DNA of 64,000 nucleotides from the human T2T-CHM13v2.0 reference genome, Homo sapiens. Shown here piece by piece: positions 22,957-36,900 of this stretch (position 1 is the first letter of the stretch; each line of letters begins with the position of its first letter). A program made the translations under genes and the position numbers. The DNA lies in NCBI RefSeq assembly GCF_009914755.1, contig NC_060936.1; one strand, given 5' to 3'. The notes under the pieces are model-generated. The model saw nothing but the letters and a program-made list of their open reading frames with translations. It did not search any database and was not told the origin of the DNA.

Positions 22957-23282
22957 TCAGACCTGGCCCTTCACATCCTTCAGATCCCCCAGCACCTGTT
23001 CCAAGTGCCTGACATCCAGATATGCCACCAAGCCGTCCTGGCTGGCCCAGGCTGCTGCCTCTTGGTTGCCTGGCACCAGTTGGTGGTAGGTGTGCTGAGG
23101 CGGGGACCCTTGTCCCTCCACACCAAGCAAAGCCAGCTTTCCCTCCAGCTTCACCACGCCTCCACCTAGGCCCAGCGACACAGCATGGGGGCCACAGATG
23201 TCTCAAGCAAACCTGCAGCCTTCTGAGAGCATGTAGGCATCAGCCAGACCCAGTGCCATGCACAGCAGCTTGTAGCCTGCAT
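22957..23282 (-). pseudogene. INPP1-like terminal exon: AGYKLLCMALGLADAYMLSEGCRFA*DICGPHAVSLGLGGGVVKL...PQHTYH...WASQDGLVAYLDVRHLEQVLGDLKDVKGQV*
   Basis: Compare INPP1 GAGYKSLCVVQGLVDIYIFSEDTTFKWDSCAAHAILRAMGGGIVDL...PQLVYH...WANKGGLIAY; one continuous frame with the W of the WD motif mutated to TGA (23205-23203). Confidence 0.92.
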
Positions 23283-23796
23283 CTAAGCACAGGAAAGGGT
23301 GAGGGGATATGAGGAGGGTGAGGGGATATGAGGAAGGTGAGGAAGAAAGAAGGGATCCAGAATCAAGGGAAAAGAACAGTTGAGGAGAGTTGGGAGAGGG
23401 GTGAGGAAAAACCGGAAAGTGAGAGACATAGAGGAGGGTGGGAGGCATGGGGAAGGATGGGGGAAGAGGAGGCAAAAATACATGAAGGATCAATGCTTCT
23501 TGGGCTTCAGTTTAAAAAACATTTTCTTTAATTTTTGAAAAATAGGTGTAAGAGAGGAGTGGGGAGAGGGAAGAGGAAGAGATAGGGATGGGAGGGAAGA
23601 AGGAAACAAGGATGCATCATCAAAGCCATCCCCCCACTGGGAGGGTAAGGAGAGTGGTGGATAAAATTCAAGGTCCAGAGGTTGGGTCTGAAATGGGGGC
23701 CTGAAATTTAAGTCCAGAGGCCTCAGCTTTGGATAAGGATAGAGGCACGGTGCTTGATGGCATCTCTCAGATCGCAGGGTGAAGGAGGGGCTGCAC

Positions 23797-23965
23797 CTGC
23801 GCGTTTGCAGGTCCTGCTGGCAGAAAAGCTCATAGACCATCCCGCAGGGCTCTCCAGAGAGTAGGTTATATGCCCCAGCACCAGCACTGAGTGCAGCCCC
23901 CAGGGGAGTACTGTGCACGGGCTCCACGGCGACATCACCACTATGTATTTACTGGTTGGTGGAGA
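23797..23965 (-). pseudogene. INPP1-like exon D: (V)[18 protein letters not shown](fs)[10 protein letters not shown](fs)GAYNLLSGEPCGMVYELFCQQDLQTRR
   Basis: Compare INPP1 DSTYQYIKGSAD...FPCGLQCVTILIGVYDIQTGVPLMGVINQPFVSRDPNTLR; TAA at 23951-23949; ccccag| acceptor and AG|GT phase-2 donor. Confidence 0.85.
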
Positions 23966-23988
23966 CTGGGGAACACAAAGGAGTCTCC

Positions 23989-33656: not shown

Positions 33657-33729
33657 TGACAGCGCTGCCTCTTTTGTTGGCTCCGCAGCCAATCGCGGCC
33701 GCTGACGACACGGGGGCCGGGGCTATAAA
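33657..33729 (+). promoter_or_regulatory. GDF11 core promoter: TGACAG (MEIS/TALE, 33657), CCAAT (33689), TGACG half-CRE (33703), TATAAA (33724)
   Basis: Direct motif matches about 230-290 bp upstream of the ATG, inside the CpG island. Confidence 0.8.
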
Positions 33730-33951
33730 GGGCCTGGCCCGGGCTCGGGCCCCCCCAGCCGCCCGCCCCGGCCGCCCGCCCGCCCCGCCCGCGCGCCCGC
33801 CGCCCCCGGCCCCCCGGGTCCCCCCTCGGCCGGGCAGCCCCCAATCCCGCGCCGCCCGGACCCCCTCCTCCTCCCTCCCTCCTCCCTCCGCCCCCTCCCC
33901 GCGGGACTCCGGCGTCCCCGCCCCCCAGTCCTCCCTCCCCTCCCCTCCAGC

Positions 33952-36900
33952 ATGGTGCTCGCGGCCCCGCTGCTGCTGGGCTTCCTGCTCCTCGCCCTGG
34001 AGCTGCGGCCCCGGGGGGAGGCGGCCGAGGGCCCCGCGGCGGCGGCGGCGGCGGCGGCGGCGGCGGCAGCGGCGGGGGTCGGGGGGGAGCGCTCCAGCCG
34101 GCCAGCCCCGTCCGTGGCGCCCGAGCCGGACGGCTGCCCCGTGTGCGTTTGGCGGCAGCACAGCCGCGAGCTGCGCCTAGAGAGCATCAAGTCGCAGATC
34201 TTGAGCAAACTGCGGCTCAAGGAGGCGCCCAACATCAGCCGCGAGGTGGTGAAGCAGCTGCTGCCCAAGGCGCCGCCGCTGCAGCAGATCCTGGACCTAC
34301 ACGACTTCCAGGGCGACGCGCTGCAGCCCGAGGACTTCCTGGAGGAGGACGAGTACCACGCCACCACCGAGACCGTCATTAGCATGGCCCAGGAGAGTAA
34401 GTGGGCTGCGGGGCGCGAGCAGTGGGGTGCTGGCTCTGGCCCCGCGAAGGGCGCCTTCTGCTCCAAGCGGGGCGCTCCCTGCTGCCCCGGCCCGGAAGCT
34501 TTTTCTGCGAAAACTTGACGAATTAGGGAGCGGGGGCTACTTCATAGAAGTTTTCCGAGCGGTGGAGATGGGCTGCAAAGTTGTATGCACGCCTAGTTCC
34601 CGGAGGTTGGGGCGGGGGAAATGGGGCGGGTTTCGAGATAGTGCCTTCCACCCCCAGTATGCTAAAAAGATCCTTGTTGGAGTCCGGGGAAGCTGGGGCT
34701 GGGCAGTGACTCTGTCCTGAAAAGCCGTGGTGGGGAGGCTGGAGAACAGAATCGGGAGGCTGCAGGACCCCCGCAGCCCCAGCTGGACTGCAGTGCTCTC
34801 TGCTTCCCAGTGGCCCTGGCGGTAACTCCCCACTCCGTGCTCCGTTCGCAACGTGCCCAACGGGTTGCAGAGAACTGTGTGCTTTCTCCCAAGAATAGGG
34901 TCCCAGAGCCCTGTACACCTCCTGGCAGCCCAGCTGGCACCCTTTCCATCCTGACCCCTGTCTCAGACCGGGTATCCCAAGGGGTCGGAAAAGCTGTGCC
35001 TTCTTGATACTGACCGAGCTCGGAGAGCTCAACTCCATTGCGCTGGGGGCTAAGGACACTCATTGGCTACTCAAACCTTAGTGTTCCATCCCTTATTCGC
35101 CCACCCCTACCGCAGGTGGACTTGAGAGAGACGAAGACCTAGGAAAAAAGAGAAAGTAGTAGATGGGGGAGCAGGAACCCAGGCATCCGAGCCCCTGACC
35201 AAACGGAAGATGAACATATAATAGACATGAGCTGCTTTGAAATTTTATGGCCTGGAAAATCCAGGCGAATACTACACCCCCCCTTTTCCAGCTCTCCTTA
35301 GGGTCAGGTGACTCCTTCTCCTCCCCCACTGAGGTCTCCCCCCCTCCCCAACTACAGGGAACCAGGCCTCTCTTATTCCCTAGTGGTTTGGCAAGGTTCC
35401 CCCCTTCCCACAGCCCCCTGCAACACACACCGAGTTTGGTTTTATGGCTGTGAACAGAAGACGGGGGAGACTGGTTTATTGGCAGATGGGTCATAAAAAG
35501 CTGGGGGCTGAGGGGAGTCCCAGTGGCCCACCCCCATGGGAGAGGCACAGGAACCCAGGTGTGCATCTGGGAGGCTGAGTGCCTCACACTGCCCCTGGTA
35601 TTTCTGCAGACCTCAATTCCACAAGACTTGGTCAGGGCTGTTAAACTCAAAGAACCAGGAAACTGGCTGTGGGGGTGGGAGGTATGGGGATCCGGTCTGG
35701 GGTTCCTCAGTTTCCCTTCTATTCTTAAGCCTTCTGCTTATGGAAGCTAGGGTCAGTCTCAGATCGACTGAGGGCAGGGGTAGGGGGTGGGGTTTCTAGG
35801 AAACAGAGTTATAGAGGAATTCAGATCAAGAGTTTGCTGGAAGATGAAGGTTACAGAGGGAAAAGATACTCTAGTCTCTGTGGTGTAGTGTGTGTGAAGA
35901 TTTCCAGGATGGGTGATGGGGCTGTGGACTTCTCCTTGCCCCTAAATATCCTTAGCATCCCTTAACCAACAGGCCTGAGCCCACCAGAGTTAGCTCTGGT
36001 AATGGGGATACACGAAGTGAAGGGACCCTGCCTTCATGAGTTGGGCTGTGCAGGTGAGGCCTGGGTCGGTGGGAAGGGGACACCAGCTGGTAGGATCCCA
36101 TCAAAACTTACAGTCCCGTGCCACCCCAGGACTTGTACAAGTAGGGAACTGGGTCTCCGGCCAGGTATTGTACGTCCCCTTTAAGAGCCTAGCTGAGCTC
36201 TTAAGAGAGGGAGGGGGAGTGGAGGGGAGGGGAGGGAGAGAGGGGAAAAGGAAAAAGAGACTTTTATAGTCTAATCCCCAGGGACCCGCTTTAATAAGAG
36301 ACTTGTGCTCTGCTAATCGGGGGAGGTGTTTGTCAGCAGAGATGGCCTCCGTTCCCCTCCCCCTCCCTCCCCTCCCCCAGCCCTCAACCCTGGACCCCAG
36401 CCCCCACCTCTCCTAGGCTGCTCTGCCTGCCCTAGTTCCCTCTACCCTCTCAGGCTCTCCCACCAAGCCTTCATCCTGGGAACCCAGCCCCCTGCCCTTC
36501 TGGGAGCCAAGCCCAGCCCGAGTTTCTCTCTCCTCCCCACACCAAGAGGCCCCTGCCCTCTCAGCCCAACCTCCTGCCCTTAGGCCTTCCAGCCATGGTT
36601 GGGAGTGTGTGTGTTTGGGGGGGTTAGGGTGGGGGGAAGGGGAGGTGGTGTGCAGGGAGGGGGTTGGGCATTTGCTGAAAATAGTGCAGTGACCTCTCTC
36701 TCCCACCAGCGCCGCCTACTAAACCTGACCTGCTGCCTGCCACCAGCCCGATCAATTCAACACAGATGTGGCCCCTTTTCCTCCCCATCAGAGCTCGGCA
36801 TATGTGTGCTGGGTACTCTCTCGAGCCCCGTTTCCCTCTGTGGCTCTACCTGCTTCTCCTTTGTTCCTCAGTCTGTACCCTTTCTATCCTTTCTCTCCTT

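What the first reader, a model, noticed from the sequence alone, without database searches (positions are those of the whole stretch)
22957..33952. INPP1-like relic is head-to-head with GDF11, mirroring INPP1-MSTN on 2q32: probable lost ohnologue
Seen: the relic is on -, GDF11 is on +, and their start codons are about 5.9 kb apart. Knowledge: functional INPP1 lies 5' of, and divergent from, MSTN (GDF8, the closest GDF11 paralogue) on 2q32. 2q31-32 and 12q13 are HOX-linked paralogons (ITGA6/ITGA7, NAB1/NAB2, GLS/GLS2, ORMDL1/ORMDL2). Inference: this is a whole-genome-duplication sister of INPP1. Readable splice sites and a near-intact last exon imply it was under selection for most of vertebrate history and died relatively late, so some living vertebrates should still encode this uncharacterised inositol phosphatase.
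Basis: inference. Interest (0 to 1): 0.88.

Follow-up and report, generated by a model that had tools for sequence, protein, structure and literature searches.

The report
Dead INPP1 sister gene beside GDF11
Between CD63 and GDF11 on human chromosome 12 lies the decayed but still readable remains of a second inositol polyphosphate 1-phosphatase gene, whose intact counterparts are the genes labelled "INPP1" in reptiles, birds and fishes.

Summary
On the minus strand, 28060-22957, five exon-like pieces lie colinear with INPP1-family proteins (profile E-values 1e-12, 2e-7, 6e-14, 4e-5, 6e-31). Seven of eight visible splice sites are kept, and three intron positions are the same as in INPP1. The gene is dead. 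It has no start codon, a TAA in exon 4, a TGA in the last exon and a lost exon-3 donor. The metal-binding DPIDST motif reads DLVVST, and about 53 codons are unrecognisable.

It is not a copy of human INPP1. In a 36-protein tree it sits inside the amniote part of a second clade ("B": sharks, ray-finned fishes, lungfish, caecilians, reptiles, birds; support 100/100). AU tests reject placing it with mammalian INPP1 (p=0.005).

INPP1 on chromosome 2 is divergent from MSTN, as claimed, but about 303 kb away. A tortoise gene model that runs from a clade-B gene into out-of-frame CD63 implies the same gene order in a reptile. About a quarter of family-invariant residues are replaced, which suggests roughly 10^8 years of decay.

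Synteny with GDF11 outside mammals and the date of death could not be tested directly. No description of the relic was found in print.

The parts
27881..28060 (-). Exon 1 remnant (family residues about 9-68). The 5' limit is uncertain. There is no ATG at the expected place and no Met codon in the 109 in-frame codons upstream. The donor CAG|GTGAGG is kept, phase 0.
   Evidence: profile 20-73, E 1.4e-12.
27559..27619 (-). Exon 2 remnant, 61 nt, FPGLQDHIHGEQPNKFENSL+G. The acceptor CCCCTAG| and the donor G|GTGAGT are kept, phase 1.
   Evidence: E 2.2e-7. The boundaries equal those of exon-skipped mammalian INPP1 isoforms.
26983..27192 (-). Exon 3 remnant, 210 nt, three codons longer than in relatives. 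The acceptor CCATCCTAG| is kept. It ends in W-M-D-L-V, where the family has W-I-D-P-I.
   Evidence: E 5.5e-14.
26981..26982 (-). Exon 3 donor position reads TT instead of GT, so the splice donor is lost.
   Evidence: The position and phase are fixed by the skipped-exon isoforms P0367 and P0377.
23966..26982 (-). Intron 3, 3017 nt. Of this, 2049 nt are in four masked repeat blocks (Alu-like). An antisense Alu ends 16-24 nt upstream of the exon 4 acceptor.
   Evidence: Hub repeat list.
23797..23965 (-). Exon 4 remnant, 169 nt. The acceptor TTCCCCAG| and the donor CGCAG|GTGCAG (phase 2) are kept. Its first codon, completed by the last base of exon 3, reads Val where the family has the second Asp of DPIDST. 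Net two codons shorter than turtle clade B.
   Evidence: E 4.2e-5. The donor position equals the retained intron in P0004.
23949..23951 (-). In-frame TAA at the Tyr of S-T-N-Q-Y-I.
23283..23796 (-). 514 nt that should hold intron 4, an exon of about 53 codons (RWQG...FASG) and intron 5. No recognisable coding remnant is left. It is CT-rich, with a 19-nt tandem duplication at 23333-23296.
   Evidence: profile positions 217-269 not matched.
22957..23282 (-). Last exon, one frame of 108 codons (AGYK...KGQV, then stop). The acceptor TGTGCTTAG| is at 23284-23283. 50% identical to turtle clade B over 100 residues.
   Evidence: E 6.1e-31. The exon boundary FASG|AGYK is suggested by P0193.
23203..23205 (-). 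In-frame TGA at the Trp of F-K-W-D.
26554..26592 (-). 39-nt copy (37 of 39 identical) of exon 1 bases 27946-27908, sitting inside the end of an antisense Alu in intron 3.
28061..33951 (.). 5.9-kb spacer between the 5' ends of the relic and the GDF11 coding sequence. Its last 1.5 kb is strongly pyrimidine-rich on the + strand and runs into the GDF11 CpG-rich promoter.
   Evidence: hub annotation.
33952..34396 (+). GDF11 exon 1 coding part, the divergent neighbour.
   Evidence: Hub annotation. GDF11 exon 3 finds MSTN at 85% identity.
14169..20675 (-). CD63, the same-strand neighbour downstream of the relic. The relic's stop codon is 2.3 kb upstream of the farthest annotated CD63 start.
   Evidence: Hub annotation. 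The tail of tortoise model P0193 aligns to CD63 frame 3.

Best explanation
This is a unitary pseudogene: the dead human copy of a second inositol polyphosphate 1-phosphatase gene (here 'clade B'), the ancient sister of INPP1 ('clade A', 2q32). The pair most likely arose with the MSTN/GDF11 pair in the vertebrate whole-genome duplications. In both regions the phosphatase gene and the TGF-beta ligand gene are transcribed divergently.

Clade B stayed intact in cartilaginous fishes, ray-finned fishes, lungfish, caecilians, reptiles and birds. There it keeps the catalytic motifs and is annotated simply as INPP1. By inference it is a Mg-dependent, lithium-sensitive 1-phosphatase acting on Ins(1,4)P2 and Ins(1,3,4)P3.

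In the lineage leading to humans it lost constraint, on a rough estimate about 10^8 years ago, and has decayed in place between CD63 and GDF11. It makes no enzyme now.

Shown: homology, exon structure, the disabling changes, placement in the tree, and the two human loci. Inferred: the whole-genome-duplication origin, the enzymatic activity of living clade-B proteins, the date of death, and adjacency to GDF11 outside mammals.
For: Homology and colinearity.

Spliced exons 1-4 (620 nt) give one frame with a single stop. The last exon gives 108 codons with a single TGA.

Splice sites: 7 of the 8 identified sites keep AG/GT.

Intron positions:
- Exon 1/2, 2/3 and 3/4 boundaries equal those deduced from mammalian INPP1 isoforms P0315, P0367 and P0377.
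- The exon 4 donor equals the retained intron in P0004.
- The acceptor before AGYK equals the break in P0193.

Clade membership:
- The relic is 44-47% identical to the 7 amniote clade-B proteins and 36-38% to the 9 clade-A proteins. It is B-type at 2 of 2 fixed diagnostic columns.
- In the careful tree of 36 rows it falls inside amniote B at 100/100. B is monophyletic at 95/92 and A at 100/98.

AU tests:
- relic + mammalian A: p=0.005
- relic + all A: p=0.0195
- A + tetrapod B: p=0.00085
- A + fish 'B': p=0.0018
- A + sarcopterygian B: p=0.0088
- A + osteichthyan B: p=0.032

Living orthologues: 775 proteins at E<=1e-10 to turtle P0005. Among the best 120, the 107 named rows are reptiles, birds, caecilians, lungfish, ray-finned and cartilaginous fishes, and none is a mammal.

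Paralogy of the regions: GDF11 exon 3 finds MSTN at 85% on C2 (-), with INPP1 on C2 (+) about 303 kb away and divergent.

Synteny in a reptile: the tail of Gopherus model P0193 aligns colinearly to frame 3 of human CD63 coding nt 168-716 at 35.0 bits. Controls score lower: RDH5 20.4, GDF11 21.9, BLOC1S1 19.2. None of 200 shuffles reaches 35 (maximum 28.9).

Decay: the relic keeps 57 of 76 columns invariant in all 26 A+B proteins, and 67 of 92 invariant in B.
Against: - Pfam's general Inositol_P model sees none of the 90 minus-strand frames. Recognition therefore rests on INPP1-specific comparisons.
- The relic's branch is very long (2.7 changes per column) and its composition deviated in the quick tree. 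Its exact place inside amniote B is unresolved (81/43, nominally beside lepidosaurs, not outside all sauropsids).
- All AU groups except the first were named after a tree had been seen, and the tests share the model's long-branch behaviour. The step that puts sharks inside B is only p=0.032.
- Clade A is known here only from mammals, frogs, a salamander and one unnamed protein (P0024). An accelerated tetrapod-only copy pulled towards the outgroup cannot be excluded by the tree alone.
- No genome of another vertebrate could be read. GDF11 adjacency outside mammals is untested, and the CD63 link rests on one chimeric gene model at 28% identity.
- There is no frameshift in 946 nt. At the estimated decay about 4 would be expected (indel rate recalled from the pseudogene literature), so the estimate or the assumption of neutrality may be off.
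- If the gene died only about 10^8 years ago, marsupials or monotremes might keep it, yet no mammal appears among the best 120 relatives.
Confidence: 0.85

Rival explanations
1. A recent segmental or retrotransposed copy of human INPP1 that decayed quickly.
For: Only that INPP1 is the sole other family member in the human genome.
Against: The relic has introns at ancestral positions. It is 36-38% identical to clade A against 44-47% to amniote clade B. AU tests reject it with mammalian INPP1 (p=0.005) and with all of clade A (p=0.0195). It has the clade-B extra acceptor before AGYK, whereas INPP1's last exon is uninterrupted over residues 225-383.
Confidence: 0.01
2. An old paralogue made by a small-scale duplication in the bony-fish, sarcopterygian or tetrapod stem, not by whole-genome duplication. 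On this view clade A is the fast-evolving copy, drawn to the outgroup in the tree.
For: Named clade-A proteins are all tetrapods. The clade-A stem is long (0.23+0.21). The test that keeps sharks outside is only p=0.032.
Against: AU tests reject a tetrapod-stem origin (p=0.00085) and a sarcopterygian-stem origin (p=0.0088). The two copies sit, divergently oriented, beside the two members of the MSTN/GDF11 pair, within what are recalled as HOX-linked paralogous regions. That would be a coincidence for a local duplication.
Confidence: 0.1
3. The exons are dead as coding sequence but are kept by selection as cis-regulatory elements of GDF11 (exon remnants reused as enhancers, a phenomenon recalled from work on fish duplicates). 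This is compatible with the main explanation.
For: No frameshift in 946 nt, and 7 of 8 splice sites kept. The relic lies 5.9 kb from a developmental regulator.
Against: 25-27% of family-invariant residues are replaced, one exon is unrecognisable, and Alus have inserted in and beside the exons. No RefSeq functional element is listed in 21486-33757 in the part of the hub's list that is shown. No cross-species conservation could be measured.
Confidence: 0.1
4. The locus still encodes a protein or a functional phosphatase in humans.
For: None beyond the long open stretches.
Against: No start codon, two in-frame stops, a lost donor, the metal-binding Asp replaced, about 53 codons missing, and no annotated transcript (hub table).
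Confidence: 0.01

Closest known systems
Human INPP1 (inositol polyphosphate 1-phosphatase, 2q32; solved bovine structure 1inp)
   Same: Same protein family. Same exon 1/2, 2/3 and 3/4 boundaries and phases. Same divergent orientation to a MSTN/GDF11-family gene.
   Different: It is a different, older lineage: 36-38% identity, and rejected as nearest relative at p=0.005. INPP1 is intact, lies about 303 kb from MSTN, and has an uninterrupted last exon. The relic is dead, lies 5.9 kb from GDF11, and has the clade-B acceptor before AGYK.
The proteins annotated 'inositol polyphosphate 1-phosphatase' or '-like' in turtles, crocodilians, squamates, tuatara, birds, caecilians, lungfish, ray-finned and cartilaginous fishes (for example Dermochelys coriacea P0005)
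   Same: Orthologous clade by tree (100/100 for amniotes plus relic). Shared signatures are KFENSLGE, STNQ-Y-I and E-x-F in place of QPF. In one tortoise model the gene lies upstream of CD63 on the same strand.
   Different: These are intact, match Pfam PF00459 and keep DPIDST, GEES, KWD and GAGYK. The human copy is disabled.
Classical human unitary pseudogenes such as GULOP (recalled)
   Same: A gene with no functional copy at its locus in humans, but intact orthologues in other vertebrates, decaying in place with its introns.
   Different: Here a sister gene (INPP1) survives and presumably covers the activity. The loss appears to be shared by all mammals in the protein collections searched, not restricted to one order.

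Membership tests
INPP1 family (inositol polyphosphate 1-phosphatase) | Significant, colinear sequence similarity to INPP1 proteins over most of their length | tested here: met
   (1inp residues 17-65, 84-155, 317-388). (profile positions 20-216 and 270-375 of 377).
INPP1 family (inositol polyphosphate 1-phosphatase) | Match to Pfam PF00459 (Inositol_P) | tested here: not met
   0 of 90 minus-strand frames at E<=1. Living clade-B proteins do match. The exon pieces are short and INPP1 is a divergent member.
INPP1 family (inositol polyphosphate 1-phosphatase) | Metal-binding motif D-P-I-D-S/G-T and W-D motif (roles of the residues recalled from the 1inp literature) | tested here: not met
   The first motif reads D-L-V-V-S-T across the exon 3/4 junction. 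In the second, the Trp is a TGA and the Asp is kept. The Asp of TLAD and the first Glu of GEES are kept.
INPP1 family (inositol polyphosphate 1-phosphatase) | Shared intron positions and phases | tested here: met
   Three boundaries equal those deduced from exon-skipped mammalian isoforms. One equals a retained intron in P0004.
Unitary pseudogene | Disabled reading frame at a locus with gene structure (not a retrocopy) | tested here: met
   No ATG, a TAA, a TGA, a lost donor and a missing exon, with introns present.
Unitary pseudogene | Intact orthologue in other species at the corresponding place | tested here: inconclusive
   Orthology by tree is met. Position is shown only through one tortoise read-through model into CD63. 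No other vertebrate genome could be read.
Vertebrate whole-genome-duplication pair (ohnologues) | Duplication older than the split of cartilaginous and bony vertebrates | tested here: met
   Clade B, including sharks and rays, has support 95/92. Later origins are rejected at p=0.00085, 0.0088 and 0.032. The last step is marginal.
Vertebrate whole-genome-duplication pair (ohnologues) | The two copies lie in paralogous chromosome regions | tested here: met
   GDF11/MSTN are 85% identical in exon 3, and each has an INPP1-family gene in divergent orientation. The wider 2q31-32/12q13 paralogy (ORMDL1/2, NAB1/2, GLS/GLS2, HOXD/HOXC) is recalled, not tested.
Vertebrate whole-genome-duplication pair (ohnologues) | Single copy in invertebrate chordates | not tested
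   The outgroup rows are one beetle protein and unnamed representatives. No amphioxus, tunicate or lamprey sequence was identified.
Processed or recent duplicate pseudogene of INPP1 | Intronless, or nested within mammalian INPP1 | tested here: not met
   Introns are present. AU p=0.005.

The most novel reading that the evidence does not exclude
Reciprocal loss and hidden paralogy. After the vertebrate genome duplications, mammals, frogs and salamanders kept the MSTN-linked copy (INPP1) and lost the GDF11-linked one. Birds, reptiles and most fishes kept the GDF11-linked copy and lost the other. On this reading the 'INPP1' of chicken, zebrafish and other non-mammalian models is the orthologue of this human pseudogene, not of human INPP1.

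Support:
- No named bird, reptile or fish appears among the best 120 relatives of bat INPP1, although six amphibians at about 62% identity do.
- No mammal, frog or salamander appears among the 107 named rows of the best 120 relatives of the turtle protein.
- In more than 20 bird assemblies the protein lies on contigs of only 1-7 Mb. This suits a dot chromosome, not the large chromosome that carries MSTN in birds (karyotype recalled).
- All 10 papers naming INPP1, HIBCH and MSTN together deal with mammals.

Not excluded: the lists are cut at 120 rows, so weaker second copies in either group would not show.
Probability: 0.45. Interest if true: 0.7.

Novelty: new member of a known kind. Interest (0 to 1): 0.6.

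Why it matters
The finding adds a readable, unannotated unitary pseudogene to a well-studied human interval. No row for it appears in the RefSeq table supplied.

It also shows that the INPP1 family had two ancient members. If the reciprocal-loss reading holds, orthology tables are misleading here. Results on 'inpp1' in chicken or zebrafish would concern a different gene from the human INPP1 that is discussed as a lithium target. The enzymology of the clade-B protein has never been looked at as such.

The locus is also a clean test case for three things:
- dating gene death from shared disabling mutations across mammals;
- asking whether exon remnants next to a developmental regulator (GDF11) acquire regulatory roles;
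- linkage evidence that MSTN and GDF11 regions descend from one ancestral region.

Tried and rejected
- Pfam scan of all 90 minus-strand stop-to-stop frames of at least 25 aa in 22900-29500: no Inositol_P match, only chance hits.
- Word-indexed search with the last exon for longer proteins: one hit, a beetle INPP1. It was too insensitive, so the full HMMER representative search was used instead.
- The missing exon (RWQG...FASG): not found by profile search of all three minus frames at E up to 1000. A weak look-alike, QWGDGFDDASL at about 23636, is noted but not claimed.
- Long clade-B gene models as a route to synteny. tblastn of 120 clade-B proteins against the whole window gave no hit outside the relic at E<=1e-3. 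Pfam found no second domain in 6 long models. Only the out-of-frame CD63 comparison worked. GC-rich hits of the same tail near the CD63 promoter were set aside as compositional.
- Rfam on 21000-34500: nothing.
- Literature searches:
  - 0 papers for INPP1+GDF11+pseudogene;
  - 0 for 'inositol polyphosphate 1-phosphatase-like';
  - 0 for INPP1+GDF11+synteny;
  - 0 for INPP1+HIBCH+MSTN+chicken;
  - 88 papers with two of INPP1/GDF11/CD63, of which the 20 listed are irrelevant by title and abstract;
  - none of the 15 papers listed holds 'inositol polyphosphate';
  - 2 papers for INPP1P/INPP1L, apparently misspellings of INPPL1 (listing only).
- Two gene-loss papers:
  - PMC3296468: a term search of the main text gave 0 for inositol, INPP1 and GDF11. 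Its supplementary files could not be opened. Its list of genes lost in early mammals may bear on novelty.
  - PMC10195156: a term search of the main text and of one supplementary file gave 0.
- Not possible with these tools: reading any non-human vertebrate genome, mammalian multiple alignments, or the names of the representative-library proteins (P0003, P0010, P0024).

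
Full report
**What is there.** The minus strand between 28060 and 22957 carries five exon-like pieces that are colinear with inositol polyphosphate 1-phosphatase proteins.

- Three stop-to-stop frames hit the solved bovine enzyme (1inp) at residues 17-65, 84-155 and 317-388, with E 1.5e-5, 4.8e-5 and 3.9e-4.
- tblastn with full-length relatives added a short second exon and a fourth exon.
- A profile built from 17 clade-B proteins matched:

| Window | Profile positions | E-value |
|---|---|---|
| 28027-27866 | 20-73 | 1.4e-12 |
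| 27622-27551 | 68-91 | 2.2e-7 |
| 27196-26984 | 88-155 | 5.5e-14 |
| 23963-23790 | 157-216 | 4.2e-5 |
| 23286-22969 | 270-375 | 6.1e-31 |

  Profile positions 217-269 were not found.
- Pfam's general Inositol_P model saw none of the 90 frames tested, so recognition depends on INPP1-specific comparison.
- In the whole human genome a turtle relative finds only INPP1 on chromosome 2 (4 pieces) and this locus (3 pieces).

**Gene structure.** The boundaries can be read to the base.

| Piece | Coordinates | Acceptor | Donor |
|---|---|---|---|
| Exon 1 | ends at 27881 | n/a | CAG\|GTGAGG |
| Exon 2 | 27619-27559 | CCCCTAG\| | G\|GTGAGT, phase 1 |
| Exon 3 | 27192-26983 | CCATCCTAG\| | reads TT where GT should follow |
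| Exon 4 | 23965-23797 | TTCCCCAG\| | CGCAG\|GTGCAG, phase 2 |
| Last exon | 23282-22957 | TGTGCTTAG\| | n/a |

- Seven of the eight identified sites keep AG/GT.
- The exon 1/2, 2/3 and 3/4 boundaries and their phases are those deduced for INPP1 from exon-skipped mammalian isoforms (P0315, P0367, P0377).
- The exon 4 donor coincides with a retained intron in a bird-like model (P0004).
- The acceptor before AGYK coincides with the point where a tortoise model leaves the family sequence (P0193).
- INPP1 itself has no intron at that point. Residues 225-383 lie in one open frame on C2.
- Joined in a script, exons 1-4 (620 nt) give a single frame with one stop.

**Why it is dead.**

- There is no ATG at the expected start, and no Met codon in the 109 in-frame codons upstream.
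- A TAA replaces the Tyr of STNQYI (23951-23949).
- A TGA replaces the Trp of FKWD (23205-23203).
- The exon 3 donor is lost.
- The metal-binding DPIDST motif reads D-L-V-V-S-T across the exon 3/4 junction.
- About 53 codons (RWQG...FASG) are unrecognisable within the 514 nt between exon 4 and the last exon.
- Intron 3 has been swollen to 3.0 kb by repeats, and one Alu ends 16-24 nt upstream of the exon 4 acceptor.

**Which gene it was.**

*Database searches.*

- A full HMMER search of the representative library with the last exon (stop read through) gave 218 proteins at E<=0.001, and none at E<=1e-30.
- The best hit is an unnamed 66-residue protein at 83% identity (P0003). Next come P0004 and P0005 at 51%. 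A mammalian INPP1 (P0031) is at 40%.
- P0005 is the 'INPP1' of the leatherback turtle. Its 120 best relatives (of 775 at E<=1e-10) include 107 named rows. These are turtles, an alligator, squamates, tuatara, many birds, two caecilians, a lungfish, a sturgeon, teleosts, sharks and rays. None is a mammal, frog or salamander.
- The 120 best relatives of bat INPP1 (of 843) are mammals, including marsupials, followed by six frogs and salamanders at about 62%. No named bird, reptile or fish appears.

*Tree.*

- In a careful maximum-likelihood tree of 36 rows (384 columns) the relic falls inside the amniote part of the turtle-type clade (100/100).
- That clade, from sharks to birds, follows the species tree and is monophyletic at 95/92.
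- The INPP1 clade (mammals, amphibians and one unnamed protein, P0024) is its sister, at 100/98. A quick tree of 54 rows agrees.
- The relic's branch is very long (2.7), and its place within amniotes is unresolved.

*AU tests.*

| Group held together | p |
|---|---|
| relic + mammalian INPP1 | 0.005 |
| relic + all of clade A | 0.0195 |
| clade A + tetrapod B | 0.00085 |
| clade A + the fish genes | 0.0018 |
| clade A + sarcopterygian B | 0.0088 |
| clade A + osteichthyan B | 0.032 |

Only the first group was fixed before any tree was seen.

*Identity.* The relic is 44-47% identical to amniote B and 36-38% identical to clade A. It is B-type at both fixed diagnostic columns.

**The neighbourhood.**

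- GDF11 exon 3 finds MSTN on C2:190546621-190546998 (-) at 85% identity.
- The INPP1 coding exons lie at C2:190849665-190860936 (+).
- In both regions, therefore, the phosphatase and the ligand gene are divergent. The distance is about 303 kb on chromosome 2 (with, from memory, HIBCH and C2orf88 in between) against 5.9 kb here.
- No other vertebrate genome could be read.
- One indirect piece of synteny came from a 655-residue Gopherus agassizii model (P0193). It follows clade B up to ...RFASG and then has a 385-residue tail.
- Residues 108-293 of that tail align colinearly with frame 3 of the human CD63 coding sequence, nt 168-716, at 35.0 bits. RDH5, GDF11 and BLOC1S1 score 20.4, 21.9 and 19.2. 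None of 200 shuffles reaches 35 (maximum 28.9).
- The simplest reading is a read-through model from the clade-B gene into CD63. This puts the two genes next to each other on one strand in a tortoise, exactly as the relic and CD63 lie in the window.

**When it died (inference).**

- The relic keeps 57 of 76 columns that are invariant in all 26 aligned A and B proteins, and 67 of 92 that are invariant in B.
- If those sites were fully constrained until the gene died, about 0.13-0.15 unconstrained substitutions per site have accumulated. On the human lineage that is of the order of 10^8 years.
- That is late in a history of more than 400 million years, but not recent.
- Two things do not fit neatly. 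First, there is no frameshift in 946 nt, where roughly four might be expected (indel rate recalled). Second, no mammal, marsupials included, shows an intact clade-B protein among the best 120 relatives.
- Either the estimate is too low, or the gene was lost more than once, or some constraint remains.

**How it works.** It does not work; it is a relic. Its living orthologues keep DPIDST, GEES, KWD and GAGYK and match PF00459. They are most likely Mg-dependent, lithium-sensitive 1-phosphatases like INPP1. This is inferred, not tested.

**Novelty.**

- Eight literature searches and term searches in two gene-loss papers found no description of an INPP1-like relic or gene beside GDF11.
- The supplementary list of PMC3296468 could not be opened.
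- The RefSeq table supplied has no row for it.
- The kind of object, a unitary pseudogene of a lost duplicate, is well known.
- The possible reciprocal loss, which would make bird, reptile and fish 'INPP1' orthologous to this pseudogene and not to human INPP1, is the part that would change practice.

Noticed in passing
window 26554-26592 (-) versus 27908-27946 (-): A 39-nt stretch of relic exon 1 (encoding [12 protein letters not shown]) is present a second time, 37 of 39 identical. It is embedded in the poly-T end of an antisense Alu in intron 3, 1.35 kb away. It looks like a short templated insertion or gene-conversion patch that post-dates the Alu.
   Followed up: partly
protein P0193 (Gopherus agassizii model, 655 aa): This public gene model appears to be a chimera. 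Clade-B INPP1 exons are joined to CD63 read in the wrong frame, which is an annotation error that happens to preserve synteny information.
   Followed up: yes
clade-B proteins versus INPP1 on C2:190860409-190860936: Clade B seems to have one more intron than INPP1 (between FASG and AGYK). The evidence is the break in P0193 and the acceptor at 23284-23283 in the relic. INPP1's last exon is uninterrupted there.
   Followed up: partly
window 32500-33500 (+): About 1 kb directly upstream of the GDF11 CpG-rich promoter is extremely strand-asymmetric: GC skew -0.39 to -0.59 and AT skew -0.30 to -0.57, meaning pyrimidine-rich on the + strand. It is a long polypyrimidine/polypurine tract of unknown role.
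   Followed up: no
window 23296-23333 (-): A perfect 19-nt tandem duplication (two copies) lies in the CT-rich stretch just upstream of the last exon's acceptor.
   Followed up: no
protein P0024 (unnamed, 329 aa): A clade-A protein that branches below frogs, salamander and mammals and lacks exon 3. Its organism is unknown. If it comes from a fish, it would show that clade A also survives outside tetrapods.
   Followed up: no
protein P0003 (unnamed, 66 aa): A predicted protein 83% identical to the C-terminal 65 residues of the relic's last exon, starting at a Met where human has Val. Some other genome carries the same relic with this stretch still open.
   Followed up: no
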